Virus record (IMG/VR): IMGVR_UViG_2531839587_000015
Origin: a virus
Lineage: Duplodnaviria; Heunggongvirae; Uroviricota; Caudoviricetes
DNA: 34,485 nt
Reading direction: 5' to 3' (one strand)
A program made the translations under genes and the position numbers. Shown one piece after another: positions 1 through 32,705 of this stretch. Below the pieces are notes generated by a model that searched no databases, had not been told where the DNA came from, and worked only from the letters and a program-made list of their open reading frames with translations. How positions within the stretch are numbered: position 1 is the first letter of the stretch; the number at the start of each line of letters is the position of its first letter.

Positions 1-54
1 TTAAAATCCCTCGGCGTTCGCGCTGTGCGGGTTCAAGTCCCGCTCCGGGTACCA
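1..54 (+). tRNA. leuZ: 3' portion of tRNA-Leu(UAA), truncated by window start (anticodon loop, long variable arm, T-arm, CCA end)
   Basis: Sequence ttaaaatccctcggcgttcgcgctgtgcgggttcaagtcccgctccgggtacca matches the recalled 3' end of E. coli tRNA-Leu(UAA): T-arm GCGGG/CCCGC, GGTTCAAGTCC T-loop, terminal ACCA. Confidence 0.8.
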
Positions 55-206
55 TGGGAAAGATAAGAATAAAATCAAAGCAATAAGCAGTGTCGTGAAA
101 CCACCTTCGGGGGGGTTTTTTGTATTTGTATTTTGTGCAATGGCGGTGGAGTGGCGATGGTGTGGCGATATGCAGAAACAATAGTAGTGCACGTGCTGTT
201 TAAACT

Positions 207-254
207 CTAAGGATGAAGCCGAATTCTCCTGCAGCTCCTCCGTATTTCGCATAG
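207..254 (-). pseudogene. Hok-family toxin remnant: only the C-terminal ...LCEIR... codons remain; about 130 nt including the start codon are missing relative to the copy at 1067-1207
   Basis: Minus-strand translation gives LCEIRRSCRRIRLHP*. Flanking DNA aligns with the 3' end of the intact hok at 1100-1140, and the adjacent leader (255-365) aligns with 1255-1380. Confidence 0.5.
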
Positions 255-365
255 TGAACTAGGACCTCGGTTAAACAAAAATTTTTCTGGGATTTTTCCA
301 CTCGACTTCATTTTTCCTCCTGCCATCCACCAAAAGGTACCTGCGCTAATCTGTCTTTTTTAATC
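255..365 (-). repeat. hok/sok-like leader region, copy A (homologous to 1255-1380)
   Basis: Shared blocks cctcggttaaaca, tttccac, cctcc..ccatc..cc.aaagg.acc..cgc.taatct...tttttt with the region upstream of the intact hok ORF. Confidence 0.55.
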
Positions 366-593
366 TGACAACATCCTGAGAAAAGGCAAAATCGTCAGAT
401 TTACTGTTTTTCTGCTGCCTCGAATGCCGATGTCTGCAGCACTGATAAGAGCTCTATCTCTTTGATATAGATCTTTTTTTTGATGAATTGCACGGCATAT
501 TATCGTTATGACACCTTCTTGTTAAAGGTGTTGTACTCCACATCTCGATTTTATGATGTGGGTTATGATTGGTTAGTAATAGAGTGTATCGGT

Positions 594-875
594 ATGCGAT
601 GTGGTTTATTAATGGCAATCTGTTTTTGTTTGGTATCTTTTAGTGGGTATGCAGCAACAGGAAAGTCTGATGCTCAGATCAAGAAAGAAATAATTAAAGA
701 ATCCATTGAATCGTATCCAGGCAATTGTGCGTGTCCTTATAATCATGCAAGGAATGGTAGTAGATGTGGTAGACGCAGTGCATATAGCCGTACTGGAGGG
801 TATGACGTGGTATGTTATGAGAGTGATGTTACGGATGAAATGATCCGGCAATGGAAGCAGGAGAATGCTGAGTAA
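594..875 (+). CDS. Small secreted Cys-rich protein (signal peptide MRCGLLMAICFCLVSFSGYAA; motif CACPYNHARNGSRCGRRSAY resembling YHYH-type proteins); AT-rich gene
   Basis: ORF 480-875 in the track. An internal Met at 594 begins a typical signal peptide; the 38 residues before it look non-native. Low-GC coding sequence. Confidence 0.55.
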   Translation: MRCGLLMAICFCLVSFSGYAATGKSDAQIKKEIIKESIESYPGNCACPYNHARNGSRCGRRSAYSRTGGYDVVCYESDVTDEMIRQWKQENAE

Positions 876-952
876 TCACTTTTAACTGGTTTGTTTTGCG
901 AGCATTATGTGTGTTGTTAACGGTACCCTAGCTAAGTGAGAGCTCCAAAAGA

Positions 953-985
953 AAACCCGCAGTTTTTACGCTGCGGGTTTTCTTG
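953..985. terminator. Bidirectional rho-independent terminator (cccgcag / ctgcggg stem flanked by A-run and T-run)
   Basis: Hairpin aaaacccgcag-tttttacg-ctgcgggttttc lies between the convergent + strand gene ending at 875 and the - strand hok ending at 1067. Confidence 0.65.
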
Positions 986-1066
986 TTTGTGTCCATGGGA
1001 TAGGGTGCCACTTCGGCCAGCCTTAGCAACCGATTGACGGGGGATTGCTCCCCCGTCGCGGTTTCC

Positions 1067-1207
1067 TTACTGCTTACACTGTAAGAACGCCGCAAACTCC
1101 GCTCCCCAGAAGCTCATCCGTATTTCACACAGCGAACCGTGCAGCATCCAGATGATGAGGATTACCGTCACGCAGAACGTGATGGCCATAAGCGATTTTT
1201 GCGACAT
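1067..1207 (-). CDS. Hok/Gef-family type I toxin, 46 aa (MSQKSLMAITFCVTVILIIWMLHGSLCEIRMSFWGAEFAAFLQCKQ)
   Basis: Own translation; absent from the ORF track because it is under 60 aa. Single TM helix plus the conserved SLCE(I/L)R and AAFLxCK motifs of HokA-like toxins. AAGGAG Shine-Dalgarno 10 nt upstream. Confidence 0.75.
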   Translation of the reverse strand: MSQKSLMAITFCVTVILIIWMLHGSLCEIRMSFWGAEFAAFLQCKQ

Positions 1208-1254
1208 AGCGCTTGCTCCTTTTTTGGGGAGGCGCTAACCTATCACTTGCTAAG

Positions 1255-1385
1255 GTTAGATGGTCAGGGCCTCGGTTAAACAGAAATGTTTTCCGGGGCC
1301 TTTCCACATCTGGCCTTCGGGTATTCCCTCCAGCCATCAGCCGAAAGGCACCCGCGCGTAATCTATCGCTTTTTTGTTACTCCGG
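1255..1385 (-). repeat. hok/sok-like leader region, copy B (mok/sok/translational-activation region upstream of intact hok)
   Basis: Homologous to 255-365. The SD region is embedded in a GC-rich pairing context typical of hok mRNAs. Confidence 0.5.
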
Positions 1386-1397
1386 CAATTCAGCCTG

Positions 1398-1658
1398 TTA
1401 ATTCTGAGGTAAGGGCAAACTCATTTGGTTGTTTCCCCTGTGCGAAGCTGGCAGCTCATTCCACGGGATGCCCTCTGAAGAGTGAACGCCTGGGGCGTGT
1501 TTCGATGTGAATTTATGGAAAGCCTCCAGTGTTGAGAAGCATACGCCGCATTCCAGGTTGTTACACTGGTAATATTTTTTCCGCACGGTATCTGAATCAT
1601 TTTCCGAACGACTGGTGCGGATACGGGCAGATGCGCCACAAAGCGGACAACGAAACAT
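1398..1658 (-). CDS. ogr: Ogr-like zinc-finger late-gene transcription activator
   Basis: MFRCPLCGASARIRTSR...YYQCNNLECGVCF shows the CxxC...CxxxxC pattern and N-terminal similarity to P2 Ogr. GGGAGG SD 5 nt upstream of the ATG. Confidence 0.85.
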   Translation of the reverse strand: MFRCPLCGASARIRTSRSENDSDTVRKKYYQCNNLECGVCFSTLEAFHKFTSKHAPGVHSSEGIPWNELPASHRGNNQMSLPLPQN

Positions 1659-1761
1659 AGCGACCTCCCTTAACGTAGTACTGTCGCTAGTTTAGGCTGA
1701 ACTTACTCAGACTCCAACTGATAGTTCGCTTTGTTTACTGATGCCGTAGAAAGGTCTCTTA

Positions 1762-1792
1762 GCAAGAATAACCCCAGTTTAACACTGGGGTT
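1762..1792 (-). terminator. Rho-independent terminator downstream of the moron gene (ccccagt / actgggg stem, U-run on the minus strand)
   Basis: Hairpin aaccccagtttaacactggggtt followed on the minus strand by uuauucuug. Confidence 0.6.
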
Positions 1793-1807
1793 GCTTGCAA
1801 CAGAGCG

Positions 1808-2461
1808 TCAATTTTTAAGAGCGCCGATACAGAAAAATTGCATGACATTTTTCTTTATTGATTTAAATAGGCTAAATATTGTGATAGGTCTAAAGCTAGT
1901 CAACTCGCTGAATTCTTTTCTCATTTGGGAAAGTAACTGCCGACGTACTGATTCAATTTCTGCTGTTTGAGCTCTCAAATATCTTGAGAAATCAAGTAGT
2001 TCATCAGCTGTTTTGTTTTGGCTATTTATAAACGTAACAGGTTGCCCTGGCTTAGATATGAGAAAGAATTGATCAATTTTATCAAGTAATGGTGGAATTA
2101 TTTGTTTCCATTCAGCCCATTCTTTTTCACGATGAAACTCCAGGCTGTGCTGACATGCTCTGAGTTGCTGTATATCAATCGCCCAGACCTCACTCTCATC
2201 GAGGCAATCTTTCCATTTGCTAATTACATTAATGTCAAATTTTTTGTTCGGTCGATAATCTTCTTTGGCGCGCGCTTCCAGTATAGAGGCAAGGCTACCT
2301 GTATATTGCATCAAATTGGTAGATGCTCGGTTTACTAGCTCAGATATTCGATCTAGTTGAGTTGTTCTAATCTCAAGTGCTTTCTTTTTACGTTCATTTC
2401 GTAAAGCAAAATATGCAGCAAGGCAGACTGCAGCAACTGTGGCTGCTGGTTGCATATTCAT
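1808..2461 (-). CDS. Moron: membrane-anchored hypothetical protein, 217 aa (N-terminal TM helix QPAATVAAVCLAAYFAL + KKK, then a soluble alpha-rich domain); AT-rich
   Basis: ORF 1808-2485 in the track. Start placed at the Met at 2461, which has an AGGA SD 8 nt upstream. Lies between ogr and D, where P2 has no gene. GC clearly lower than the flanking phage genes. Confidence 0.6.
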   Translation of the reverse strand: MNMQPAATVAAVCLAAYFALRNERKKKALEIRTTQLDRISELVNRASTNLMQYTGSLASILEARAKEDYRPNKKFDINVISKWKDCLDESEVWAIDIQQLRACQHSLEFHREKEWAEWKQIIPPLLDKIDQFFLISKPGQPVTFINSQNKTADELLDFSRYLRAQTAEIESVRRQLLSQMRKEFSELTSFRPITIFSLFKSIKKNVMQFFCIGALKN

Positions 2462-2655
2462 AACATGGATCCTCTGACATGGCATTTATGGGCGCTATTT
2501 CAGCAGTAATCATTTGTGTGTAAATTTGTTTGCTACAAATTAACATATTCTAATGTAAGGTACTTCTGATTTTGACACTTGGTAGGCTGTCAGATTGGTT
2601 ATGATTCTTGCTGTAGGCGCGTTAACAAATGTCAGGGCTAATGCATCTAAGTTGT

Positions 2656-3753
2656 TTACTCTGTTTCTGCTATCCATTCCGGGATTTTTGCTTCAAGCTC
2701 AAGCTGAGTGGTAAAGCCGCTGTTGTCAATGGTGTGCTCGGCTTTTGCAATAATCCAGTCCTGATTGTCAATGTCACTTTTGAAGCCTGTCACCGTGCCA
2801 TGCATTTCGGGATAGAGTTCTGCACGTCCACACGCCAGCGTGATGGAGAACGCTGCGGCTCCGCGTTGTAGCTGCTGCCACTTTGCCGCCGCTGCACGTC
2901 TTGCTGCCTGCTCGTTCTGATAAGTCTTGCGTAACACAAACACGTTGCCTTCCGCGCCTTCCATATAGTCGCCTTCCCGGCTGCTGCTTTTCTCCTTTTT
3001 CGGTTTGCGGCGTTTCACGCTGACTTTTTTCTTTTTCCCGTAATTAAGATCAAGCCAGTAGGCGCGTACACCCGTATACGCCTCGCGGTCAGCAATGCGG
3101 AACTGATGGCGATCGCCGCTGCTGCGTGTGATGGCAACGATGGCAAGGCTGGCCCTGTGCGTTCACGCCACCGCCGGCATGATGAATAACAGATTACCGC
3201 TTTTTACCGTGGTGATTGCGCCCAGCATTTCCGCCATGCGCGTAAGGAAGGACATGTCGCTTTCTTCAGTCTGGTCGGCGTGGTCGATTTCGATATCCAT
3301 CAGCATTTCGCTGATTTGCGGTTTCAGACCATACCGATGAGCGATGGCGGATACCACACGCTCAATGGTCACATCATGCCAGGACACCTCACGTTTAACG
3401 TTAAATTCATCCCGAAAATCTGCGCTTCTGGCTGAAACAGTCAGCCTGTCCGGCGGTCCTTCGTGAGCGATTTCATCAACAATGTAAGTGCCTTTTTCTG
3501 TCAGCGGTTCTCCTTTCCAGCCAATGAGAACCGTCAGGCGCGCGCCCCGTGGCGGTAGCTGCAACTGACCATCCGCATCATCCAGCGTGATGGTGAGCTG
3601 GTCCGCTTCAAATCCCCGGTTGTCGGTCAGTGACAGGCTCATCAGGCGCTCTGCCACGCCGGACAGCGTTTTCCCCTCCGCGAGAATATCAAAATCCGGC
3701 ATTTTCACGGGGTCTGTGCTCTGACTGAGCAATTGCATGGTGGTGTCGGTCAT
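2656..3753 (-). pseudogene. D: gpD tail protein (P2 D homolog) interrupted by a single in-frame TGA at 3163-3165
   Basis: Track ORFs 3163-3774 and 2656-3018 are in the same frame. The stretch between them translates without stops (THRASLAIVAITRSSGDRHQFRIADREAYTGV...) and matches gpD on both sides. Start placed at the Met at 3753 with a GGGAGGG SD. Confidence 0.8.
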
Positions 3754-3909
3754 CTTTCCCTCCCTGTGCGGCATGGTCGCATGTGCGTGCGGAGGGGGTT
3801 ACTGCTTTTTGTTGTCGCCGTGGCGGGAGAACGGCGCAGGGGTGAGATTACGCGCGTGGTGGGTGATGATTGTTGCCGAATCATTTAACGGATACAAGGG
3901 GCTGAAGCT

Positions 3910-5087
3910 ATGAGTGAAACTCGTTTTCATGGTGCCCGTGTTACGGAAATACCGACCTGGTAACAGCGATTAAGATGTTGATTCCAGGTTATCGGTATCG
4001 TGGCAACGGCGGATGATGCGGAGCGAGCTGTTCCCGCTGAACAAGCCCACACTGCTGACCCGCGTCAATGACGTGCTGGGAAAATGCGGACAACGGGACG
4101 CTTTATCGTGCGCTTAAGGCCATCGCAGACCAGGTGAGCACAAAGGTGATCGTCGTTCGCGTGGCTGAACACAAAGAAGAAGACGGAAAGACGCAGGATC
4201 AACTGGTTATCGGTGGTTCTGAGGATGACGGCAGCTATACGGGGATGTATGCGCTGCTTGTTGCAGAGCAGGATGAAAGCATCGGATACCGTCCGCGTAT
4301 TCTGGCCGCGCCGGAGCTGGACACGGAGGCGGTAACAAAATCCCTGTGCGTGATTGCGGGTAAACTGCGCGCGTTTGTGTATGCCTCATGTCACGGCTGT
4401 AACACGATGGCTGAGGCGATTACCTACCGCCAGAAATTCAACGAACGTGAGGTGATGCTCTTATGGCCGGACTTCATCGCCTACAACCCGAAAAGTGGCA
4501 AAAACGAAACGTTCCCCGCGCCTGCCTATGCGTGCGGCCTTCGTGCGTACATTGACCATGAGCAGGGCTGGCACAAATCGCTGTCCAACGTTCCGGTTAA
4601 AAATGTGCTGGGGATGTCCAGGCATGTGTTCTGGTCGTTGCAGGCCGAAGACAGTGATGCCAACAGCCTCAACAACAAAGAAATCACGACCATTATTCGT
4701 CGCAATGGGTTCCGCTTCTGGGGCAACCGCACACCGGAAACGAACGCCTACATCTTTGAGGTGTATACCCGAACCGCACAGGTGCTGGCTGATTCAATTG
4801 CGGAAGCGCAGTTTGAAACCATCGACAGTCCACTGACGCCTGCGAACGTGAAAGATGTTATCAGTGCCATCAGGGCAAAACTGGATTCACTGGTTACTGC
4901 CGGGAAACTGATTGGGGCGTCGTGCTGGTATGACGTGGTGGATAACGGCACCACGAATTTACGTCAGGGGCGCGTGCGTATTCGCTACAAATATACGCCT
5001 GTTCCCCCGCTGGAAGACATGGAGCTTTACCAGTCGTTTACTGATGAATTCTTTGGTCCCGCATTTGCGGTGCTGGGAGGTGCCTGA
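3910..5087 (+). pseudogene. FI: gpFI tail sheath; the first ~175 bp are broken by stops and at least two +1 indels; intact sheath frame from about 4083 to 5087
   Basis: ATG at 3910 with an AAGGGG SD encodes MSETRFHGARVTEI and then hits TAA at 3961. Sheath-like segments IGIVATADDAE, ELFPLNKPTLLTRVNDVLGK and NADNGTLYRALKAIADQ lie in three different frames. Downstream 335 aa match the P2 sheath. Confidence 0.8.
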
Positions 5088-5599
5088 TGGCTGTACCAAA
5101 ACATCTTCGCTTTTTTACGCTGTTTGTGGATGGTGAAAACGAAGTGGGTAAGGTGACGTCCGTCACTCTGCCTAAGCTGACGCGCAAAACCGACAGCTAC
5201 CGGGGTGGTGGCATGATGGGTGCGGTAAGTATTGATCTCGGTCTGGACGACTCCGCGCTTGATGCGAGCTTTGTCATGGGGGGCGCAGTTCGTGAGCTGT
5301 TCCTTAAGTATGGCGGCACGATTGACGGCACGCTGCTGCGTTTTGCGGGTGAATACTACACCGATGCAGAAAGCGACCTGTATGAAGTCGAAATGCGCGG
5401 ACGTGTGACGGAAATTGATATGGGGGAAGCCAAACAGGGCGAAGCCACATCACACACTTACGCCATTAAAAACACCTACTACAAGCTGAGTGTTAACGAT
5501 CGCCCGTTGTGGGAGATTGACCTGCTGAACTTCATTTACCGGAAGGACGGCAAGGACATTGTGCCCGATCGCATCCGTTCCGCGCTTGGGCTTGGCTGA
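5087..5599 (+). CDS. FII: gpFII tail tube protein
   Basis: 170 aa. Start overlaps the FI stop (TGATG). Similar in length and sequence to P2 FII (LPKLTRK..YRGGGM..DLGLDD motifs). Confidence 0.9.
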   Translation: MAVPKHLRFFTLFVDGENEVGKVTSVTLPKLTRKTDSYRGGGMMGAVSIDLGLDDSALDASFVMGGAVRELFLKYGGTIDGTLLRFAGEYYTDAESDLYEVEMRGRVTEIDMGEAKQGEATSHTYAIKNTYYKLSVNDRPLWEIDLLNFIYRKDGKDIVPDRIRSALGLG

Positions 5600-5653
5600 T
5601 AAGTAATATGCAGGCGGCGCAGTGCGTCGCCTCTGACTGAAAGGAGTTTCCTG

Positions 5654-6019
5654 ATGAAAGAGACGAAAAACATCGATACCGAAAACACGGTAGTTACTGA
5701 CACTGTGAAAGAAACCAGTGAGCGTGGCGTAAAACTTACCCAACCAATTGAGCGAGGCGGCGAAAAAATCACGTATGTGGAGATCACCGGGGCTATTGAG
5801 CAGGCTGGATCTCTGCGAGATTTGTCGCTGTCTGATGTGCTGAATCTGAAAGCGGAATCCATGTTTACGCTGCTGTCACGCGTGACATCACCGCGACTGG
5901 ATGAAGTGACGATCAAAAAAATGGCATCCCGTGACTTTATTCAGTTATGTGTGGTTGCCGTAAATTTTTTGAGCGGTGCGGACTCTGGCGGGAAGAACGA
6001 ACAGGCGACGGAAGCCTGA
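5654..6019 (+). CDS. E: gpE tail assembly chaperone
   Basis: 121 aa with AAGGAG SD. Sits immediately upstream of the tape measure gene and contains the TTTTTTG slippery site near its 3' end. Confidence 0.85.
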   Translation: MKETKNIDTENTVVTDTVKETSERGVKLTQPIERGGEKITYVEITGAIEQAGSLRDLSLSDVLNLKAESMFTLLSRVTSPRLDEVTIKKMASRDFIQLCVVAVNFLSGADSGGKNEQATEA

Positions 6020-6183
6020 TCACGGTTGTGTGCTTTGAGCACATAGAAGACTTTGTGGCGGATATTGCCGCCATTTTTAACTGGTCGCCCGCCGAAATCT
6101 TCATGATGACGCCCGGCGAAGTGGTTAGCTGGCGTGAGCGGGCGGCACTTCGCAGCGGGAATGCAGACAATGAAGACTCTTGA
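5654..6183 (+). CDS. E': gpE+E' fusion made by programmed -1 ribosomal frameshift
   Basis: The -1 frame ORF (track 5947-6183) continues past the E stop. Slippery heptamer TTTTTTG at 5965-5971 as in P2 E/E' (analogous to lambda G/GT). Confidence 0.7.
5965..5971 (+). other. Slippery heptamer T6G for the programmed -1 frameshift (E to E')
   Basis: aaaTTTTTTGag. The 0 frame reads N-F-L, and the -1 frame is open to 6183. Confidence 0.7.
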
Positions 6184-8977
6184 TATCCGGGTCGCTTTCA
6201 GCGCCGTTGACAGGCTGACCCGGCCTGCCGAAAACGCCCGCCGCCTGATGGGGCAGTTTGGTGACTCCATCCAGCGAACGCAGGGGGCGATCAAAAATCT
6301 CGAGCGTCAGGCGCGATCATTTGAGCGCGCCCGTGACGCTGTCAGTAAAGCGGATGCGGGCATCGTGAAAGCACGACGCCAGCTTAACGCCCTTAATCAG
6401 TTACAACGCACGGGTACAGTGCTCAGCGAAAAACAACAAAAGCTGATGCAGCAGTTAAGCACCCGGCTTGAACGCCTGAATGAATCGCGCACACGGGAAA
6501 TTCAGAAAATGCGGGAACTTGGCGGAGAACTGAAACGCCACGGCATTTCCCTGACAGGCAGCGATAACACCATCCAGCAGGCCATCAGACGCACCGAACA
6601 GTACAACAACCAGCTTGAACGCGAACGGCAGGCGCTTGCGCGTGTAACGCAGGCGCGTGAGCGGTATTCGCGCGCGCAGGAAAACGCGGGAAAACTGAAA
6701 ACAGGTGGTGCGCTGGCAATTGGTGCGGCAGCGGCTGGCGGCTATGCTGCCGGGCGTTTTTTGCAGCCTGCGATCGGGTTCGGCAAAGAGATGTCCCGCG
6801 TTCAGGCACTGACGCGAATCGACAAAAACAGCCCGCAGTTTAAGGCGCTGCGTGAGCAGGCGTTAAAACTTGGCTCTGAAACACAGTTTACTGCGAGTGA
6901 TGCCGCCAGTGGGCAGAGCTTTCTGGCAATGGCTGGTTTTACTCCGCAGGCCATTCAGGCCGCATTGCCCGGTGTTCTTAATATGGCGCTGGCAGGTGGC
7001 GTCGAACTCGGCGAGACGGCTGATATAGGCTCCAATATCCTCACACAGTTCAATCTGACAGCCGATCAAATGGACCGGGTTGGCGATACGCTGACAGCGG
7101 CATTCACCCGGACCAATACTGATTTACGCGCGCTGGGCGAAACCATGAAGTATACCGGTCCGGTTGCCGCAAAACTTGGTATCAGTCTTGAAGAAGCGAC
7201 GGCCATGGCCGGGATGCTTGCCAATAATGGTCTTCGCGGAAGCGATGCTGGTACGGCCATGCGCGCAAGTCTGTCCCGCCTAGCATCACCGCCAAAAGCT
7301 GCGGCTGATGCGCTGAAAGAGCTGGGGGTGTCAGTTGCTGACGCCAGAGGCAAAATGCGCCCGATGGAGGATGTGCTGCTTGATCTCTATAAGGCGACAC
7401 AAAAATACGGACAGGTGGACCAGGTCTCCTTCTTCAAGGACATCGCCGGAGAAGAGGCGTTCGTTGGTTTGCAGACGCTTGTTGCGGCGGCTGGTTCAGG
7501 AGAGCTGCAAAAACTGACCAGAGAATTGCAGGGGGCAAAGGGAGAGGCCGATCGCGTTGCAAAAGTAATGGCCGATAATCTTGATGGGGACCTGAAAAAT
7601 CTCGACAGCGCATGGGAAGGTCTTCGTATTCGCATCAGTGATCTGGTTGACGGTCCGCTGCGTTCTGTCACGCAGTGGCTCACGCGGGTGCTTGAAAAAA
7701 TCACCTCGCTGGCGCAGGCCCATCCGGTACTGACACGCCAGCTACTGATAGCAGGCGGTGCGTTGCTGGCAATGACTGCAACGATTGGCTCGTTGTCGCT
7801 GGTTATTGGGGTGCTTTACGGAAAGCTGGCCACCCTGCGTCTTGGTTTTGACATTCTTACCCGGTCAATGAATGTCGTCAGGGTGTTGCCTGCGCTGTGG
7901 GGAATGCTGACGGGTTCCGTTTCTTTGCTGGGAGGCGCTATCGGAGCGCTGTTCAGTCCGGTTGGTCTTATCGTGGCTGCGCTTGCCGGAGCTGCCGTTC
8001 TTATCTGGAAATACTGGGATCCCATCAGGGCATTTTTTGCCGGGGTGTTCAGCGGGATTATGGAAAGGCTGACCCCGTTGCGCGAAACCTTTGAACGGTT
8101 TGGCCCTGTTTTTGACGCAATCGGAAGCGGGATCAGCCAGGTGTTTAACTGGTTTAAATCGCTGCTGTCACCGATGGAGTCCAGCAAGGAAACGCTGGAT
8201 AAATGTACCAGTGCTGGCGAGATATTCGGTAACGTTCTTGGCGGTGCGTTACAACTTGTTCTGACACCTGCAAAAATGCTACTGGATACGCTGGCGTGGA
8301 TACTTGAAAAACTTGGCGTCCTTCCGGATGAAGCGGAAAGGGCGCGCAAGAAAATCGAAGACGCACAGCGTGCGGCCATTCTTCAGGACAAGGTTGCCTT
8401 ACTTCAGGGGGACCTGGCGAAAATCAATCCGCCGAAGCCTGTGGAAAATGGCAATGGCACCGGAGGTGATAACCCCAAAGACAACAAACCGCTCACAGAC
8501 AGCAATACCGGGACGCTACGCAGACTCAGCAAAATTGCTGATAACACAGGTAAGCTGGTTGATGAGACGAAAAAACGCATTGGCCCCGGCGATATTGTCT
8601 TTAAGAACCTGCCCCGCGCACTTGCTGTTCGTGGGGAGTGGCAGGAGCGGAAGATTGCGCAGGTCAGTAAGCCTGCCCCCGCAATTAATATCACCCCCGT
8701 GGTCCCGGCTCCGCTGCCTCCGGCGCTGGTCCCTGTTGTTGCGGCCAGCTCCCGCCCGGTGGCGGAGGCCATACGATCTCCAGTGGCATCAGTTCCTGTA
8801 ACTTCCCGTAACCGGGAGCCTGTTGCCTCCGGATTTGGTGGTGAAATTCATGTTCATCTGCATAACGTTGTTACGCAGAATCCCCGCGAACTGGCGAAAC
8901 TGGTCGGTGAAATGGTCAGGGCAGAAATGGAACGGCGTGCCCGTGCCGGGCGTGGCAGTTTTTACGATAAAGATTGA
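6161..8977 (+). CDS. T: gpT tail tape measure protein (about 939 aa)
   Basis: Long alpha-helical protein with internal hydrophobic segments, directly after E/E'. Start is uncertain: in-frame ATGs at 6134, 6161 and 6170. Confidence 0.9.
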   Translation: MQTMKTLDIRVAFSAVDRLTRPAENARRLMGQFGDSIQRTQGAIKNLERQARSFERARDAVSKADAGIVKARRQLNALNQLQRTGTVLSEKQQKLMQQLSTRLERLNESRTREIQKMRELGGELKRHGISLTGSDNTIQQAIRRTEQYNNQLERERQALARVTQARERYSRAQENAGKLKTGGALAIGAAAAGGYAAGRFLQPAIGFGKEMSRVQALTRIDKNSPQFKALREQALKLGSETQFTASDAASGQSFLAMAGFTPQAIQAALPGVLNMALAGGVELGETADIGSNILTQFNLTADQMDRVGDTLTAAFTRTNTDLRALGETMKYTGPVAAKLGISLEEATAMAGMLANNGLRGSDAGTAMRASLSRLASPPKAAADALKELGVSVADARGKMRPMEDVLLDLYKATQKYGQVDQVSFFKDIAGEEAFVGLQTLVAAAGSGELQKLTRELQGAKGEADRVAKVMADNLDGDLKNLDSAWEGLRIRISDLVDGPLRSVTQWLTRVLEKITSLAQAHPVLTRQLLIAGGALLAMTATIGSLSLVIGVLYGKLATLRLGFDILTRSMNVVRVLPALWGMLTGSVSLLGGAIGALFSPVGLIVAALAGAAVLIWKYWDPIRAFFAGVFSGIMERLTPLRETFERFGPVFDAIGSGISQVFNWFKSLLSPMESSKETLDKCTSAGEIFGNVLGGALQLVLTPAKMLLDTLAWILEKLGVLPDEAERARKKIEDAQRAAILQDKVALLQGDLAKINPPKPVENGNGTGGDNPKDNKPLTDSNTGTLRRLSKIADNTGKLVDETKKRIGPGDIVFKNLPRALAVRGEWQERKIAQVSKPAPAINITPVVPAPLPPALVPVVAASSRPVAEAIRSPVASVPVTSRNREPVASGFGGEIHVHLHNVVTQNPRELAKLVGEMVRAEMERRARAGRGSFYDKD

Positions 8978-8989
8978 GGAGTCATGGCC

Positions 8990-9478
8990 ATGATGATGAT
9001 CTACGGCATGTTTGTTTTTGAGCTGCGCACGCTGCCGCATCAGCAGTTACAGCAAAACAAAAGCTGGCGGCATGTGAAAAATGAACGCGTTAACCGTTCA
9101 GCAAGCTGGCAGTATATCGGTGCAGGTGATGATCGCATCGTTCTTTCTGGTGTGCTTTATCCTGAAATTACTGGCGGCGAAGTGTCGCTGTCGCTGCTGA
9201 CCACGCAGGCGTATACCGGACGCCCCTGGCCTCTGATTGATGGCGTCGGGCAGATTTACGGCATGTATGTCCTGACCGAAACGAGTACGACCCGCTCTGA
9301 GTTTGATCGCTACGGTAAGGCGAAAAAGATAGAATTTTCACTAACCCTTGAACGCTGTGATGAGGATTTGCGGGAACGCCTGCAATCCTCATCATTCAGC
9401 GATATGCTGTCCGGCTTCAAAGATAAGGTGACATCATCTCTTAACAGCGCGGCCAGTTCAGTTAAAGGGCTGTTCTGA
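8990..9478 (+). CDS. U: gpU tail protein
   Basis: MMMIYGMFVFELRTLP... resembles the P2 U N-terminus. GAGGA SD 9 nt upstream of the ATG at 8990. Confidence 0.85.
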   Translation: MMMIYGMFVFELRTLPHQQLQQNKSWRHVKNERVNRSASWQYIGAGDDRIVLSGVLYPEITGGEVSLSLLTTQAYTGRPWPLIDGVGQIYGMYVLTETSTTRSEFDRYGKAKKIEFSLTLERCDEDLRERLQSSSFSDMLSGFKDKVTSSLNSAASSVKGLF

Positions 9479-9487
9479 TTAACGCAA

Positions 9488-9520
9488 AACCGCTAATGGT
9501 CAGATTAGCGGTTCTTTCTG
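9488..9520. terminator. Rho-independent terminator between convergent U and tail-fiber-assembly genes (perfect 10-bp stem aaccgctaat / attagcggtt)
   Basis: aaccgctaat-ggtcag-attagcggtt followed by ctttctg. Confidence 0.7.
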
Positions 9521-9599
9521 AAAGTGTTTCTCTGGAGCTGATAAAAACGTATTCCTCCTGAGAAGATTAAAATTTCTTATCAGGGAGCAGGAGAATAGC

Positions 9600-10010
9600 C
9601 TACGCCTCCGGCAGTTCAGGCCAGATGACATCCGGTGCGGTGCTGGTATCTGTTGCCGTCACCGCGTCGATATAATCCAGCACAACGTTAAGTCGGGTAG
9701 TTTCTTCTTGCGTCAGTTTGCGCCCGGCCTGCAGCTTTAACTGAATCACGCTGATATTGACCATTGCTGCGTCTATCAGCGACTGTTTTTTCTGTTCAGC
9801 GTCAGCTACCAGTTCATCATGAGAACGTTCCGGAGTGGGCGGCGCAGTAAATCCCCCGTCTGAATACGCCCAGCCGATTCCGGGCTGCTCACTGATATCA
9901 GAAATATTAATGAGCTGTAGATTATCCGGCACAGTGAATTCAGCCTCGCCATCCCAGGCAATTACATTCACAACCATCCCATTTTCAATAACTGCATATG
10001 ACGCATTCAT
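9600..10010 (-). CDS. Tail fiber assembly chaperone (gpG/Tfa-like)
   Basis: C-terminal ...DVIWPELPEA is typical of Tfa proteins. Start ATG overlaps the H stop (TAATG). Confidence 0.75.
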   Translation of the reverse strand: MNASYAVIENGMVVNVIAWDGEAEFTVPDNLQLINISDISEQPGIGWAYSDGGFTAPPTPERSHDELVADAEQKKQSLIDAAMVNISVIQLKLQAGRKLTQEETTRLNVVLDYIDAVTATDTSTAPDVIWPELPEA

Positions 10011-11911
10011 TATGCAAACTCCTCGATAATACAAATCCCTGCAGCGCCTTTCCCGCCCGTCATACTGGCTCCGCTATAACCAGCATCGTATGCACCACCA
10101 CCGCCTGAACCATATGCCTTACCGCTAACACCACCGCCAGCGCCTGCGCGTCCACCGCCGCCCCAGTGCGATGTTCCGCCTTCACCGCTGACGCTGATAT
10201 TCCCGGACTGACCGTCGCCTCCATTTCCACCAGTGATGTTGATACCGCCAGTACTTGGCACACCGCCGTTACCACCGTTCGTGTTTGTGACTCCTACTTT
10301 CCCGCCGCCTTCACCGCCAGGGGCTATTACCGTTCCGAACGAGCTATCACCGCCCTTGAGGCCGTTCGTCGCACCAACACCGCCGCCCCCACCTGCGCCG
10401 ATAGTGACAGGATAACTATCCTTCGTCAGGATCAGCGTGACAATTGCTGTTCCCCCAGCCCCACCGCCAGCACCGAAAAACGTTTCGTTATTGGATGTAG
10501 CCTGGCAGCCGCCCCCACCGCCACCGCCGCCCGTTATTGTGACCCTGATTCGTTTTGTTCCTGGCGTCGGGGTGTACGTACCTGATGACGTGAAAATTCG
10601 AGTGTTTACAAGGCGTCCAACATATCCGTTTGAATCGCTCAGGCCAAGGTCAGCAGTGGTAGGTTTAATATGTGAACTGTAAATTACATAGACCGCTCCA
10701 TCTGTCAGGCCTGTCGGTTTATTCGCTGTATAAGTTGGTGATGTATGAATCGTTACGCTGGCGTTACTGGTATAATCCCACTGGATATTTACACCCGTGG
10801 CGTAACCACCTATTTCAACATAAACATCATAGGTATCACCGGATGTATTCACCCATGCAAAATTAGTAAATCCAACCGATGTCCGTCGCCATAACGCACC
10901 AGTAAGACCTTTTGGATTCCCATTTCCCGCACGAAGAACAAGTTCAGATATACCAGCCTGCATAGGGGAGTTAACATTATATCCAGAACCACCAATCAGG
11001 CTTATGTAAACTACGGAACTTGCCTGTGGCATGGTTACAGTTGCCAGCTTGAACCATCCTGCACCACCAATAAAAGACATGGTTGTTGAATTTGTTGCAC
11101 CAATATTGCGCAGGAATAATCTTTTATCAGGAATATCCGCACCGTTCTGATCTTTCTGAAGACGTTTCTCAGCATTGTCATAGGCAGACTTCACCGCTTT
11201 CGGTGTTGCGGCCAGCGTTTCAGAAGTGCTATTGGTGGCGCTACTGAGCTGGACAAGACCTTTTCGCGCTGTGGTCGCGTCCTGTGCGGTATATTTCCCG
11301 TTAGCAAGGTCATATGCTGTCTTTACCGCCTTTGGCGTTGCCGCAAGCGTTTCAGAATCGCTGTTGGTTGCGCTGCTTAACTGAGTAAAACCTTTTGCGG
11401 TCAGCGATGCATCCGGGTGTCGTCGTGACTGTTCGTGTTCTGAGATTTTGTCATCCACATATTTACGGGTCGCCAGTACCACCGACGGGTCGATTTTCAG
11501 CGTGATGGCTTCGGTATTCGAGACAGCCAGAATCATGCGGATAGTCTGGGTACGACCACTGCCTTCCTGCAACTGCGGTTTGTACGTTTCCGGGCAATTC
11601 GCCACCGCAATGAGTACGCCTTCATCATCATAAAGCCCAATCTCACGGATCCAGAATCCTCCCTCGTTTTCAGGGATAATTTGTTCCGCAATAATCTGGC
11701 TCTGATTGTTAGGGTCAACACTCAGAAGATTCAGCGGTGCAATGCGTTTCTGGTTAATCAGTTTTGTTTGTGCAGGGTCTGGTGTTGGTAACACACCATT
11801 TGCATCACCAACGGCCATTTGCGTCAGATTCAGCTTACTGCCGAGCATCGTCGCGTTAGCCAGTCGTGCCGCGCCCTGATTAGTCAGAATGGCGTAGTAT
11901 TTCACTGTCAT
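10010..11911 (-). CDS. H: gpH tail fiber protein with internal repeats and a Gly-rich C-terminal receptor-binding region
   Basis: 633 aa. Conserved P2 H-like N-terminus (MTVKYYAILT...). Duplicated QLSSATNS.SETLAATPKAVK.AYD motif. C-terminal poly-Gly-rich domain. Confidence 0.85.
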   Translation of the reverse strand: MTVKYYAILTNQGAARLANATMLGSKLNLTQMAVGDANGVLPTPDPAQTKLINQKRIAPLNLLSVDPNNQSQIIAEQIIPENEGGFWIREIGLYDDEGVLIAVANCPETYKPQLQEGSGRTQTIRMILAVSNTEAITLKIDPSVVLATRKYVDDKISEHEQSRRHPDASLTAKGFTQLSSATNSDSETLAATPKAVKTAYDLANGKYTAQDATTARKGLVQLSSATNSTSETLAATPKAVKSAYDNAEKRLQKDQNGADIPDKRLFLRNIGATNSTTMSFIGGAGWFKLATVTMPQASSVVYISLIGGSGYNVNSPMQAGISELVLRAGNGNPKGLTGALWRRTSVGFTNFAWVNTSGDTYDVYVEIGGYATGVNIQWDYTSNASVTIHTSPTYTANKPTGLTDGAVYVIYSSHIKPTTADLGLSDSNGYVGRLVNTRIFTSSGTYTPTPGTKRIRVTITGGGGGGGGCQATSNNETFFGAGGGAGGTAIVTLILTKDSYPVTIGAGGGGGVGATNGLKGGDSSFGTVIAPGGEGGGKVGVTNTNGGNGGVPSTGGINITGGNGGDGQSGNISVSGEGGTSHWGGGGRAGAGGGVSGKAYGSGGGGAYDAGYSGASMTGGKGAAGICIIEEFA

Positions 11912-12516
11912 GCGTTTACTCTCAGATTATCAATTAAATGAATGACCGGGGCAGGGAAATAATCCCCTTCGACAATAATGGACTCCGGGGTGTAGGGATA
12001 AACCGTCAGGGCATCGCCGTGATAGCATCCCGTACCAACGAAAATATTTCCGTTCACACTCAGGCTGATCGCCAGCCCTGTCAGATGGCGACTTACTGGT
12101 TTTGCATCCGCAATAAGGCGCTCAAGTTCCTGATACATTTCATCTGTGATGCCCTGATCAAGTACTCCGACAACAATGCGAAATGTTCCCGGCTCCTCGT
12201 TGAGTTGCCACCACTCCTTTACTTCAATCAGGTAGCCGAGAGGCTCCACGGCTCTTCGCAGTGCGCTGATGGTCCCTTTGTGTCGGTGTATCAGCCATGC
12301 ATCACGAATAACCTGTCGCTTTGTCTCTTCCGGCCAGTTGCGATCCCAGCGGTCAACGGAAAATGCCCAGGCGAGATAAGGCAGCAGATGCACCGGGCAG
12401 GTGTCCGGCGACCACAGCGTGTTGAGGTCTACCGGAATGTCTGTAATGCGCGTTCCGACGGCTTCGGCACAACGCATGAAATTGCTGGCTGATGGTGGTA
12501 ACAGCGAATTACTCAT
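11908..12516 (-). CDS. I: gpI baseplate protein
   Basis: NPDTCP..LLPYLAWAFSVDRWD motif matches P2 I. The track ORF extends to 12549; start is uncertain. Confidence 0.85.
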   Translation of the reverse strand: MSNSLLPPSASNFMRCAEAVGTRITDIPVDLNTLWSPDTCPVHLLPYLAWAFSVDRWDRNWPEETKRQVIRDAWLIHRHKGTISALRRAVEPLGYLIEVKEWWQLNEEPGTFRIVVGVLDQGITDEMYQELERLIADAKPVSRHLTGLAISLSVNGNIFVGTGCYHGDALTVYPYTPESIIVEGDYFPAPVIHLIDNLRVNA

Positions 12517-28484: not shown

Positions 28485-28490
28485 ACTGAT

Positions 28491-28856
28491 TTACTGCGTC
28501 ATACCGTTCAGGGTGTCACGGCAAACGGCAGCCAGCCGCTGAATTTCCAGCACGGTGTCTTCTGTGTCGGCATAGCGATGTGTGATGCGGATGCTGTCGG
28601 CAATCACATCGACGATTGCAGAGGATGGGCGCTGGTAAATGCCAATAACGGACGGAGTGCCACCTTCAATGCGGTAAAGCCTGTAATTTCCCTCGTGGCT
28701 GTCAATCATGTAGCGACCATCAATAACAATCTTTCCGTCAGCGAGCTGCGGTACAGGCAGGGATTTCAGGTACATGTCATAACGTTCACGCACGCGAACG
28801 GCAAGATCACGCTCTGTGTTGAGCAGGTATTCAAGAAAGTCGTTGGCGAGAATCAT
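28491..28856 (-). CDS. Hypothetical early-operon protein (121 aa)
   Basis: ORF directly upstream of A in the same operon. Confidence 0.5.
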   Translation of the reverse strand: MILANDFLEYLLNTERDLAVRVRERYDMYLKSLPVPQLADGKIVIDGRYMIDSHEGNYRLYRIEGGTPSVIGIYQRPSSAIVDVIADSIRITHRYADTEDTVLEIQRLAAVCRDTLNGMTQ

Positions 28857-28928
28857 TGCGGCAATCCTCTTGTTACAGATGTGCGAAGGCCTCCTGCCGC
28901 AAGGTGCAGGAAAGGCCCGGAACAGGAA

Positions 28929-29159
28929 TTAATGGAGTTTGTTTTGCTGCTGGATGAGCTGCTGAAGCTCGCGCAGATCATCCGCCAGATAACTGAAAAC
29001 AGCGGATGAGTAGAGGTTTGAAAGTTCGCAGCTACGCTCATGCAGCATATTGATGTGCATGATTTTAGCGACGCGGAATGCGCGGGAAAGTCTGCGGTTG
29101 ATTTCAGTCTGGATGTGACGACGCTCCGCGATAGCGCGGTGCTGTTTGCGGTTTGCCAT
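28929..29159 (-). CDS. Hypothetical basic protein (76 aa)
   Basis: ORF with ATG. Follows a 370-nt structured non-coding region. Confidence 0.45.
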   Translation of the reverse strand: MANRKQHRAIAERRHIQTEINRRLSRAFRVAKIMHINMLHERSCELSNLYSSAVFSYLADDLRELQQLIQQQNKLH

Positions 29160-29336
29160 GGTGTGGCCTCTTTGGTTGTAAGTTTTGAAAACTCACCATC
29201 CAGAGCTGCGAAACTGTGGGTGGCGAGACGTACGGGGTTCGCAGTACCGGCAACCAAAGAACCCGGCCCGACCGAAGTCGGCCCCGTACGCCCCGCCATA
29301 ATTCTGACGCGAAAAAAACGTGGCAATACAGTACGC

Positions 29337-29360
29337 ACAAAAAAACCGCTGGCGCGGTTG
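29337..29360 (-). terminator. Rho-independent terminator inside the 29160-29526 non-coding region
   Basis: Minus strand reads aaccgc-gcca-gcgguu followed by uuuuuuu. Confidence 0.6.
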
Positions 29361-29526
29361 TGCGCTTTGGTTGTCAGCAGGCTGCGAAACCCGGCACCCG
29401 TTTTATGAGGTGCAGCGAAAATGTAACCTGACTGATTGCGGCATGGCAAGCGGTTTTTTTGTGAGAACGGCATACTAAAAAATCCTGATACTGCTCCGGC
29501 CAGCGGTTTGCACTGGCCGGGTGTCA

Positions 29527-30357
29527 TTACTTCACGGGAACGAACGGAACAGCGGGGTTACTGGTCATGTATTGCGGCAGCGTGCCGTTCCATTTGTTGA
29601 TTGCTTCCAGCTCCATAACGCCGGGATTCTGGCGCAGAGCTTCGCCGCGTAAACGAATGGCGTCGGCTTCAGCCTGGGCTTTTGTGCGAATGGCATCGGC
29701 CTGTCCGGCAGCTTCTGCGCGCAACATGTTGGCTTCTGCTTCGCGCTGCTTGACTTCCTGTTCGCGTTGCAGGGTTTTCTGGTTTGCCGTGACTTTGGCG
29801 TTAATGCTGTCGATAACGGTTGGCGGATATTCCGGTTTACCGACATAAGAGAGGCTCATGACCTGAATACCGATGGGGGTCATCTCTTCCTGAATATCTT
29901 TAAGTGCTGAATCCAGCAGTTCAGACTTACCACCGTCGATAAACTTATCGGTGGTCATTTTGCTGGCCAGTCGGTTGAGTGCATCGGCGATCTTCTGGCG
30001 CAGGTCAGTGTCGGTAATGTCGTCCACGCCTTTGCGGTAGGTCTGAAACACCGTGGTAACTTTGGATGGATCAACTTTGTAGGCCACGCCGATGTGATAG
30101 CCGATGGTTGTGCCGTCACTCATCTGGAAGTTGAACGGCTCATCGTAACTCTTCATTTGTTTGAAGGTCGGGAAGATGTAAACCTCTGTATTCCAGCCTG
30201 TCCAGTAGCGGCCAACGCCAACCACTTCACCGACGCCTTTGTCGTCGCCCAGTTTGTTGACTTTGATGCCCACATTACCTGGCTCAACGCGATCGCAACC
30301 AACCAGCAGGATGGCGGCAAAAAGCGGGAGAATCTGAAAGAGTCTGAATTTCTTCAT
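29527..30357 (-). CDS. SPFH/Band-7 (prohibitin/stomatin-like) lipoprotein, 276 aa
   Basis: Lipoprotein signal with LVGC lipobox, SPFH-like core, and a C-terminal Ala/Glu/Arg-rich coiled-coil (..QREAEANMLRAEAAGQADAIRTKAQAEADAIRLRGEA..). Confidence 0.75.
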   Translation of the reverse strand: MKKFRLFQILPLFAAILLVGCDRVEPGNVGIKVNKLGDDKGVGEVVGVGRYWTGWNTEVYIFPTFKQMKSYDEPFNFQMSDGTTIGYHIGVAYKVDPSKVTTVFQTYRKGVDDITDTDLRQKIADALNRLASKMTTDKFIDGGKSELLDSALKDIQEEMTPIGIQVMSLSYVGKPEYPPTVIDSINAKVTANQKTLQREQEVKQREAEANMLRAEAAGQADAIRTKAQAEADAIRLRGEALRQNPGVMELEAINKWNGTLPQYMTSNPAVPFVPVK

Positions 30358-30557: not shown

Positions 30558-30568
30558 ATCGCGGTCCT

Positions 30569-32039: not shown

Positions 32040-32047
32040 AACGCCCT

Positions 32048-32335: not shown

Positions 32336-32345
32336 AAAGCACCTG

Positions 32346-32687: not shown

Positions 32688-32705
32688 ATCAAAACTCCCT
32701 GCATC

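What the first reader, a model, noticed from the sequence alone, without database searches (positions are those of the whole stretch)
3754..9600. Inversion of the FI-FII-E/E'-T-U tail gene block relative to canonical P2 synteny
In P2 the F operon (FI FII E T U D) and ogr are co-directional with the V-W-J-I-H-G operon. Here D, ogr and V through tfa are on the minus strand, but FI through U (3910-9478) are on the plus strand. FI is therefore divergent from D, U is convergent with the tail-fiber-assembly gene, and no Z/fun-type gene sits between G and FI. One breakpoint falls in the 156-bp D/FI interval, right next to the disrupted FI 5' end; the other falls in the 120-bp U/tfa interval. This is either a genuine about 5.7-kb inversion in a decaying prophage, an undescribed native arrangement, or a misassembly.
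Basis: partly seen in the sequence, partly recalled or inferred. Interest (0 to 1): 0.7.

Follow-up and report, generated by a model that had tools for sequence, protein, structure and literature searches.

The report
Normal gene order of P88-type P2-like prophages
The tail sheath-to-gpU gene block does face the opposite way from phage P2, but this is the standard, inherited layout of a large known branch of P2-like phages (P88 and relatives), so it is ordinary and not a recent inversion or an assembly error.

Summary
FI, FII, E/E', T and U (3910-9478) are on the plus strand. D, ogr and the V-to-tfa genes are on the minus strand. The gaps are 156 bp (D/FI) and 121 bp (U/tfa).

It is not an event in this prophage. 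The window is collinear, in one orientation, with the inducible phage P88. One 6.9-kb alignment at 94.8% identity runs straight across the D/FI junction. Phage PhiSM has the same order. The D/FI junction occurs in 1114 of 5426 complete E. coli genomes.

Among 80 D-gene loci from other Enterobacterales, all 51 whose D is 61-99% identical to P88 D have this layout. The 27 more distant loci that could be typed have the P2 layout. The two groups separate cleanly in D and U trees, which fits one old inversion fixed in a lineage.

The D/FI gap holds a conserved Ogr-type site, TGT-N12-A(C/G)A, about 55 nt from -10-like elements on both sides. This matches the shared P2 pP/pO promoter, so I infer a bidirectional late promoter. 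A hairpin between U and tfa can terminate both converging operons.

The FI and D disruptions come from 11 private single-base deletions and are unrelated to the breakpoints. Interest is low.

The parts
1398..1658 (-). ogr/delta-type late activator gene (86 aa)
   Evidence: Pfam Ogr_Delta, E=2.4e-14. It lies downstream of D and is co-directional with it, as in all 51 inverted-type loci.
1808..2485 (-). Cargo ORF (225 aa) of unknown function, inserted between D and ogr
   Evidence: No Pfam or PADLOC hit. Window 1690-2645 has no counterpart in P88, where ogr follows D directly. GC is about 41%. EC130 annotates the equivalent gene as a hypothetical protein.
2656..3753 (-). Gene D (tail/baseplate hub), broken into fragments by three 1-bp deletions at 3136, 3147 and 3178
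   Evidence: Two Phage_GPD fragments. Collinear with P88 D at 33333-34433. Deletions listed.
3754..3909 (.). 156-bp divergent D/FI intergenic region, inferred to be a bidirectional Ogr-dependent late promoter (pD/pF)
   Evidence: A short gap of 122-195 bp is present in all 51 inverted-type loci. The alignment shows a conserved dyad and mirrored -10-like elements.
3813..3830 (.). Candidate Ogr binding dyad, TGTCGCCGTGGCGGGAGA (TGT-N12-AGA)
   Evidence: The motif TTGTTGT-N12-AGAAC occurs exactly only here and in the P/O divergent gap at 20306-20329. At the aligned column, 48 of 50 unique homologous gaps have TGT; the right half is ACA in 28, AGA in 20 and AGG in 2. P2 and 186 activator sites share the TGTTGT half-site.
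3865..3870 (+). Inferred -10 element of pF (GATGAT). The predicted start near 3877 places the dyad centre at about -55.
   Evidence: The conserved pattern gA..AT lies 44-49 nt from the dyad centre in the anchored profile. This is inference; no transcript data.
3773..3778 (-). Inferred -10 element of pD (GACCAT on the minus strand). The predicted start near 3766 places the dyad centre at about -55.
   Evidence: The mirrored conserved pattern AT..T lies 43-48 nt on the D side of the dyad centre. This is inference.
3910..5087 (+). Gene FI (tail sheath). The 5' part is frameshifted by seven 1-bp deletions at 3950-4098; the intact reading frame resumes at 4068.
   Evidence: Pfam Phage_sheath_1 and Phage_sheath_1C. 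Collinear with P88 FI at 31991-33175. Deletions. Sequence read.
5087..5599 (+). Gene FII (tail tube)
   Evidence: Pfam Phage_tube, E=7.5e-47.
5654..6183 (+). Genes E and E' (tail assembly chaperone pair). The slippery TTTTTTG at 5965-5971 would shift reading into the -1 frame.
   Evidence: ORFs 5654-6019 and 5947-6183 are in frames offset by -1. They correspond to P88 tail proteins at 31059-31424 and 30895-31050. The heptamer is seen in the sequence of repeat I12. The P2 E/E' frameshift is annotated.
6134..8977 (+). Gene T (tape measure). The real start is probably near 6170.
   Evidence: Pfam PhageMin_Tail, E=2.5e-56. P88 T at 28101-30908.
8984..9478 (+). Gene U (tail protein)
   Evidence: Pfam Phage_P2_GpU, E=2.7e-39.
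9488..9513 (.). Hairpin that could terminate both converging operons (F operon and R-to-tfa operon)
   Evidence: A 10-12 bp stem with dG -13.9 kcal/mol (plus strand, z -2.9) and -14.8 kcal/mol (minus strand, z -3.9), followed by T-rich tails on both strands. Homology with P88 ends at 9517, just after it.
9600..10010 (-). Tail fibre assembly gene (tfa), convergent with U
   Evidence: Pfam Caudo_TAP, E=1.6e-21. It is part of a tail-fibre module (9518-12072) that differs from P88 and is shared with other E. coli prophages.
10010..11911 (-). Tail fibre gene H with a glycine-rich C-terminal part
   Evidence: ORF of 633 aa. Partial similarity to P88, P2 and 186 H at the N-terminal part. Matching E. 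coli genes are annotated as 'tail fiber protein' or 'glycine-rich domain-containing protein'.

Best explanation
The window is a P88-type (Xuanwuvirus/Gemsvirus-like) member of the P2-like phages. It is integrated next to a tRNA-Leu gene.

In this lineage the FI-FII-E/E'-T-U operon is natively transcribed opposite to the R-S-V-W-J-I-H-tfa operon and to D-ogr. The layout is best explained by one old inversion of the segment 'pF promoter plus FI to U' in an ancestor of the lineage. It has been inherited since then. It did not happen in this prophage.

How it works is inferred. The inversion carried the symmetric Ogr-binding dyad of pF next to D. D had previously been the last gene of the F operon. 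A single activator site now sits about 55 nt from -10-like elements on both sides. It would drive FI-U in one direction and D (with read-through towards ogr) in the other. This copies the known shared pP/pO arrangement of P2. The F operon and the tail-fibre operon now converge on one hairpin that can terminate both.

The frameshifts in FI and D are a separate, private feature of this sequence.
For: Collinearity with functional phages:
- Window 2646-9517 aligns as a single 6885-nt segment (94.8%) to P88 34443-27559. The rest of the window aligns in the same orientation.
- The P88 annotation shows V..H/tfa on +, U-T-E'-E-FII-FI on -, and D on +.
- PhiSM has the same order.
- P88 is inducible and lytic, and PhiSM forms plaques and lysogens (abstracts and text).

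Prevalence:
- The D/FI junction is in 1114 of 5426 complete E. coli genomes.
- The invertase-free U/tfa junction is in 12.
- E. coli EC130 is collinear with window 1-10648.

Clade-wide pattern:
- 51 of 51 loci with D 61-99% identical to P88 D have J+ I+ ... U- T- FII- FI- | D+ ogr+. They span about 25 named Enterobacterales genera.
- 27 of 27 typable loci with D 48-54% identical have the P2 order.
- The inverted type is monophyletic in midpoint-rooted NJ trees of D and of U.

Promoter model:
- The exact motif TTGTTGT-N12-AGAAC occurs only at the D/FI and P/O divergent gaps.
- The dyad is conserved in 48 of 50 unique gaps, 74-88 nt upstream of the FI ATG.
- P2-type loci have the pF dyad at the same distance, 79-89 nt.
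- Mirrored -10-like elements lie 43-49 nt either side of the dyad centre.
- In P2, one activator site at 3057-3087 lies 55-56 nt from the pP and pO starts.

Terminator: the hairpin folds on both strands.
Against: - No transcript or binding data exist for pD or pF in this lineage. The promoter and terminator roles are inferred from sequence only.
- The distance from the dyad to the extrapolated D start varies from 40 to 111 nt. Some D starts are therefore mis-estimated, or some members use another promoter.
- The window's right half-site is AGA, not the ACA of the P2 consensus.
- The strict pattern TGT-N12-ACA is absent from the late gaps of the window.
- The trees are simple NJ trees with midpoint rooting. 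The 'single event' claim therefore rests on the perfect association of layout with D and U similarity, not on a rooted phylogeny.
- The genome scan kept only the best 80 of 368 loci, all Enterobacterales.
Confidence: 0.9

Rival explanations
1. A genuine, recent inversion of about 5.7 kb occurred in this particular decaying prophage. Its breakpoints lie in the D/FI and U/tfa gaps, and it damaged the FI 5' end.
For: The prophage looks damaged. FI, D, N (18721/18723) and R (15423) are frameshifted relative to P88 and 500465-2. The FI lesions start 40 nt from the D/FI gap.
Against: - Identical junction sequences occur in functional phages and in over 1000 complete genomes whose FI and D are intact.
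- No inverted repeats flank the block.
- The gap is a conserved regulatory region, not a scar.
- The FI and D lesions are 1-bp deletions spread over 960 bp. They are absent from EC130, which has the same junctions.
Confidence: 0.02
2. Misassembly: the FI-U contig was placed in the wrong orientation.
For: A cluster of single-base deletions around 3136-4098 suggests locally poor sequence quality.
Against: - The same order is found in independent complete genomes and phage genomes from many laboratories and genera.
- The alignment to P88 and EC130 is continuous across both junctions.
Confidence: 0.01
3. The block is a switchable invertible segment, flipped by the Gin/Cin-type invertase that sits next to U in P88. 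Both orientations would then coexist in populations.
For: In P88, PhiSM, 500465-2 and a few other loci a DNA invertase gene lies directly beside U. P88 has gix-like sites at 23826 and 26897.
Against: - The gix-like sites in P88 bracket the tail-fibre segment, not FI-U.
- The window has no invertase gene and no gix/hix-like site within 8 mismatches.
- Only 4 of the 51 inverted-type loci show an invertase next to U.
- Orientation tracks D and U phylogeny perfectly.
- In P2-type phages U and D abut or overlap, which leaves no room for a crossover site.
Confidence: 0.02
4. The layout is native, but D is not driven by a shared Ogr site. D would have its own independent promoter (for example sigma-70 or early) or be read from elsewhere, and the dyad would serve pF only.
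For: - The dyad-to-D-start distance is variable.
- The window's pD -10-like element, GACCAT, is weak.
- The sigma-70 consensus scan found nothing in the gap.
Against: - The mirrored conserved AT..T element lies at the symmetric distance.
- The gap is only 122-195 bp in every locus.
- P2 offers the pP/pO precedent.
- D is a structural late protein needed with the other tail proteins (established P2 biology).
Confidence: 0.25

Closest known systems
Escherichia phage P88 (NC_026014, Xuanwuvirus) and relatives: 500465-2 (Gemsvirus), 520873, 503458, PhiR44_2, P884B11, Chuche, Citrobacter phage PhiSM
   Same: They are collinear with the window over its whole length at 91-98% nucleotide identity. They share the divergent D/FI junction, the FI-U block opposite to V-G, the position of ogr and the hairpin after U.
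   Different: P88, PhiSM and 500465-2 carry a Gin-type invertase and an alternative tail-fibre/tfa segment between tfa and U. The window has neither, and it has a different H C-terminus and tfa (9518-12072). The window has an extra 956-bp cargo insert between D and ogr. Its FI, D, N and R are frameshifted.
Phage P2 (Peduovirus) and phage 186 (Eganvirus)
   Same: The same gene set is present: Q P | O N M L X Y K | R S V W J I H G | FI FII E E' T U D | ogr | int C cox A. Other shared features are the E/E' slippery TTTTTTG, an Ogr-type activator, a TGTTGT-containing activator site, and a single site shared by the divergent pP and pO promoters.
   Different: In P2 and 186, FI-U-D-ogr form one co-directional unit downstream of G, and U and D abut. 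Here FI-U is inverted, D is a separate divergent unit, and there is no Z/fun gene. D protein identity is only about 50%.
P2 pP/pO bidirectional late promoter region
   Same: One dyad-symmetric activator site is centred about 55 nt from two divergent starts (P2 site 3057-3087, starts at 3016 and 3127). The window's own P/O gap has the same motif as its D/FI gap.
   Different: The D/FI version controls tail genes instead of head and packaging genes. It has not been tested experimentally.
Mu G / P1 C / Salmonella Hin invertible segments
   Same: These are DNA inversions next to tail-fibre genes. The system is present in P88 beside U.
   Different: Those inversions are reversible, need an invertase and 26-bp crossover sites, and swap fibre C-termini. 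The FI-U orientation here is fixed, and the window has neither an invertase nor such sites.

Membership tests
P2-like phages (Peduoviridae) late/tail gene cluster | Presence of sheath (FI), tube (FII), E/E' chaperone pair, tape measure (T), gpU, gpD and an Ogr/Delta zinc-finger activator | tested here: met
   Pfam hits for all except E. E/E' is supported by position, the -1 frame offset and the TTTTTTG heptamer.
P2-like phages (Peduoviridae) late/tail gene cluster | Overall genome order: int-C | cox...A | cos | Q P | O N M L ... | tail genes | ogr | att | tested here: met
   The ORF map is collinear with P88. The window begins inside the tRNA-Leu/att repeat region: window 1-123 is repeated after int in EC130.
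Canonical P2/186 synteny (Peduovirus, Eganvirus) | FI-FII-E-T-U-D-ogr co-directional with V-W-J-I-H-G, with U abutting D | tested here: not met
   FI-U is on +, while D, ogr and V-tfa are on -. P2 and 186 annotations.
P88-type lineage (Xuanwuvirus/Gemsvirus and related prophages) | FI-U block opposite to V-G and to D-ogr, with a short divergent D/FI gap | tested here: met
   All 51 loci with a P88-like D have it, with a gap of 122-195 bp.
P88-type lineage (Xuanwuvirus/Gemsvirus and related prophages) | High nucleotide identity over most of the genome to a named member | tested here: met
   91-98% identity over about 26.5 kb of the 34.5-kb window to P88. The exceptions are the tail-fibre module, the cargo insert, part of the immunity region and int. 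Formal genus assignment by ICTV criteria was not computed.
Gin/Cin/Hin-type invertible DNA segment | Serine invertase gene plus a pair of inverted 26-bp crossover sites flanking the segment | tested here: not met
   No invertase homologue lies between tfa and U. No gix/hix-like site is found within 8 mismatches in the window, whereas P88 has two. No inverted repeats occur at the junctions.
Ogr-dependent P2 late promoter | Dyad TGT-N12-ACA centred near -55, with a recognisable -10 and a poor -35 | tested here: inconclusive
   The window has TGT-N12-AGA at 3813-3830, with -10-like hexamers at symmetric distances. The site is conserved in 48 of 50 relatives, 28 of them with ACA. No strict TGT-N12-ACA lies in the gap. 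The transcription starts are not known.
Ogr-dependent P2 late promoter | Activation by Ogr through contact with the RNA polymerase alpha subunit | not testable with these tools
   Requires reporter or in vitro transcription assays.

The most novel reading that the evidence does not exclude
The P88-type lineage is a natural rewiring of the P2 late regulon. One ancient inversion moved the symmetric pF activator site next to D. This created a second bidirectional Ogr-dependent promoter (pD/pF) and uncoupled D and ogr from the sheath-tube-tape-measure operon. I found no explicit description of this in the papers I could search. If confirmed, it would show how a dyad-symmetric activator site makes an operon inversion selectively neutral.
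Probability: 0.6. Interest if true: 0.3.

Novelty: already known. Interest (0 to 1): 0.12.

Why it matters
It matters little for discovery. The arrangement is the normal one for a very common group of enterobacterial prophages. About a fifth of complete E. coli genomes carry the same D/FI junction, and it can be seen in reference phage genomes deposited since 2014.

It has practical value for annotation. P2 itself is not the right synteny template for these prophages, so an 'inversion relative to P2' should not be read as decay or misassembly.

The modest biological point is the inferred bidirectional pD/pF promoter, which could be tested easily in P88 or PhiSM.

Tried and rejected
1. Inverted repeats at the two junctions as a trace of recombination. 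Only scattered pairs turned up, none of them linking the two junction gaps.

2. A strict TGT-N12-ACA search of the window. It gave 4 hits, fewer than the chance expectation, and none lay in a late-promoter gap. The relaxed, alignment-based analysis replaced it.

3. The sigma-70 and terminator consensus scans. No promoter was found in the D/FI gap, which is expected for activator-dependent promoters. The scan also missed the U/tfa hairpin, which was then confirmed by folding.

4. A tRNA search of the window found none. The window starts inside the tRNA-Leu/att region, as shown by comparison with EC130.

5. A gix/hix/186 crossover-site search in the window was negative. An invertase-driven explanation was rejected.

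6. A third late-promoter site upstream of R. There is only a 2-mismatch match at 15881-15904, inside the lysis gene and about 460 nt from R. I did not pursue it.

7. Literature searches for an explicit description of the inverted arrangement. None was found. One search failed on a term that was too short.

8. PADLOC and Pfam searches on the cargo ORFs gave no hits.
Full report
**Observation**

- Minus strand: ogr (1398-1658), a 225-aa cargo ORF (1808-2485) and gene D in fragments (2656-3753).
- Then comes a 156-bp gap (3754-3909).
- Plus strand: FI (3910-5087, 5' part frameshifted), FII (5087-5599), E/E' (5654-6183, slippery TTTTTTG at 5965-5971), T (to 8977) and U (8984-9478).
- Then comes a 121-bp gap.
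- Minus strand again: tfa (9600-10010), H (10010-11911), and I, J, W, V, S, R further on.

P2 and 186 have FI-FII-E-T-U-D-ogr co-directional with V-G, and U abuts D. The orientation difference from P2 is therefore real.

**Is it an event in this prophage?**

No. A megablast search against phage genomes found P88, 500465-2, 520873, 503458, PhiR44_2, P884B11, Chuche and Citrobacter PhiSM. Single alignments covered D through U.

A full comparison shows every alignment between the window and P88 (and 500465-2) in one orientation. A single 6885-nt segment (94.8%) covers window 2646-9517, straight across the D/FI junction.

The RefSeq annotation of P88 shows V, W, J, I, H and tfa on +. Next come an alternative fibre/tfa segment and a DNA invertase. 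Then U, T, E', E, FII and FI are on -, and D is on +. The same order holds for 500465-2 and PhiSM. In the PhiSM record, D is mislabelled ogr and FI is mislabelled D.

P88 was induced and lyses hosts (PMC5285337). PhiSM forms plaques and lysogens (PMC6456863).

**Prevalence**

The D/FI junction (window 2600-4300) is present at 80% coverage or more in 1114 of 5426 complete E. coli genomes. Nearly all matches are above 95% identity.

The exact U/tfa junction (8900-10400) is present full-length in 12 complete genomes. E. coli EC130 is collinear with window 1-10648 in one alignment, including the host tRNA-Leu flank. Misassembly is excluded.

**Depth of the arrangement**

I scanned one genome per GTDB species with an alignment of P88, P2 and 186 D proteins. 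This gave 80 loci, each with 10-kb flanks. I classified them with tblastn using P88 and P2 tail proteins.
- All 51 loci whose D is 61-99% identical to P88 D have J+ I+ ... U- T- FII- FI- | D+ ogr+. They come from Salmonella, Serratia, Edwardsiella, Erwinia, Pantoea, Enterobacter, Kosakonia, Citrobacter, Klebsiella, Pectobacterium, Brenneria, Symbiopectobacterium, Providencia, Morganella, Xenorhabdus, Photorhabdus, Hafnia, Yersinia and others.
- All 27 typable loci with D 48-54% identical have the P2 order.
- In midpoint-rooted NJ trees of D and of U, each type is monophyletic.
- Only 4 of the 51 have an invertase next to U. The invertase-free, convergent U/tfa junction of the window is therefore the common state.

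Burkholderia P2-like phages keep D and U adjacent on one strand. From my own knowledge, phiCTX and R-pyocin clusters are also collinear. The P2 order is therefore probably ancestral, and the P88 order derives from one old inversion.

**How it most likely works (inferred)**

The D/FI gap is short (122-195 bp) in all 51 loci.

In the window, the motif TTGTTGT-N12-AGAAC occurs exactly twice. One copy is in the D/FI gap (3809-3832) and the other is in the divergent P/O gap (20306-20329). The experimentally defined P2 and 186 activator sites share the TGTTGT half.

I aligned 50 unique D/FI gaps.
- The otherwise poorly conserved region contains TGT-N12-A(C/G)A at one column in 48 of 50. The right half is ACA in 28, AGA in 20 and AGG in 2.
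- The dyad is centred 74-88 nt (median 82) upstream of the FI ATG.
- P2-type loci have their pF dyad at the same distance, 79-89 nt, in 14 of 19. In P2 itself the annotated site centre is 83 nt upstream. pF therefore travelled with FI.
- A conserved -10-like gA..AT lies 44-49 nt on the FI side of the dyad centre. A mirrored AT..T lies 43-48 nt on the D side.
- This places one dyad at about -55 from both predicted starts, near 3877 on + and near 3766 on -.

This is the geometry of P2 pP/pO, where the site is at 3057-3087 and the starts are at 3016 and 3127. I therefore propose a bidirectional Ogr-dependent pD/pF promoter. D and ogr remain co-directional, so late read-through into ogr is still possible.

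Between U and tfa, the hairpin at 9488-9513 folds on both strands (-13.9 and -14.8 kcal/mol; z -2.9 and -3.9). It has T-rich tails on both sides. It is a plausible terminator for both converging operons. Homology with P88 ends just after it, at 9517.

**The disrupted FI 5' end**

Relative to P88, 500465-2 and EC130, the window has 11 private single-base deletions between 3136 and 4098. Three are in D, one is in the D leader and seven are in FI. Over the same stretch (2750-4500) there are only about 14 substitutions relative to EC130.

No complete E. coli genome shares these deletions; the matches are 10-11 nt longer than the query. All are deletions, they are clustered, and only some lie in homopolymers. 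This pattern looks more like local sequence error than natural decay, but I cannot decide without reads. Either way they are unrelated to the junctions, because intact relatives have the same junctions.

The two differences from P88 at 9479 and 9486 are shared with EC130, so they are natural variation.

**Rejected alternatives**

An invertase-driven switch is rejected for four reasons.
- P88's gix-like sites (23826 and 26897) bracket the fibre segment only.
- The window has no invertase and no such site.
- There are no inverted repeats at the junctions.
- Orientation tracks phylogeny perfectly.

**Comparison with what is known, and novelty**

The window is a further member of the P88-type group of Peduoviridae. 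It differs from P88 by a swapped tail-fibre module without the invertase (9518-12072) and by a 956-bp cargo insert between D and ogr.

I found no paper that discusses the inverted F block explicitly. The arrangement is nevertheless plain in annotated reference genomes. The only mildly new element is the inferred shared pD/pF promoter.

**Verdict**

Novelty is 'already known' and interest is low.

Noticed in passing
window 3136-4098 (also 15423 and 18721/18723): There are eleven private single-base deletions within 960 bp of D and FI, with almost no substitutions relative to the closest relative. There are further 1-bp deletions in R and in the capsid gene N. All are deletions and they are clustered. 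This looks like local sequencing or assembly error and not natural decay, but reads are needed to decide.
   Followed up: partly
window 9518-12072: The tail-fibre module (H C-terminal part and tfa) is replaced relative to P88. The glycine-rich H C-terminus and tfa are shared with thousands of other E. coli prophages. There is no invertase, no alternative fibre segment and no gix site, whereas P88 has gix-like sites at 23826 and 26897.
   Followed up: partly
window 1690-2645: A low-GC (about 41%) 956-bp insert between D and ogr carries a 225-aa ORF (1808-2485, minus strand) with no Pfam or PADLOC hit. P88 has nothing here, and 500465-2 has a different gene in the opposite orientation. Several other loci (L006, L040, L043) also have 1-2 kb of extra DNA here. 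This appears to be a hotspot for cargo genes.
   Followed up: partly
window 1-1207: The window starts inside the tRNA-Leu/att region. Window 1-123 is repeated after int in E. coli EC130 (L005 28546-28668). Between att and ogr lie a Hok/Gef-type toxin ORF (1067-1207, minus strand) and a 131-aa cysteine-rich ORF (480-875, plus strand).
   Followed up: no
window 24310-25585: The genes here correspond to those that P88 annotates as the plasmid segregation protein ParM and a partition protein. This is unusual cargo for an integrating P2-like phage.
   Followed up: no
L086 (OR565851.1, Citrobacter phage PhiSM) 2294-4745: This public record carries wrong labels. The 1110-nt gene labelled 'ogr' is gene D, and the 1185-nt gene labelled 'late control gene D' is the sheath gene FI.
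   Followed up: no
L006 (NZ_JBQPOM010000071.1): A 226-kb contig labelled Vagococcus sp. (a Firmicute) carries a P88-type prophage whose D is 99% identical to P88 D. The assembly is probably contaminated or mislabelled.
   Followed up: no
window 20306-20329: The divergent P/O gap carries the same 12 specified bases (TTGTTGT-N12-AGAAC) as the D/FI gap. A CGCGCGCG run lies before the -10-like element, and it resembles the D side of the D/FI gap in relatives.
   Followed up: partly
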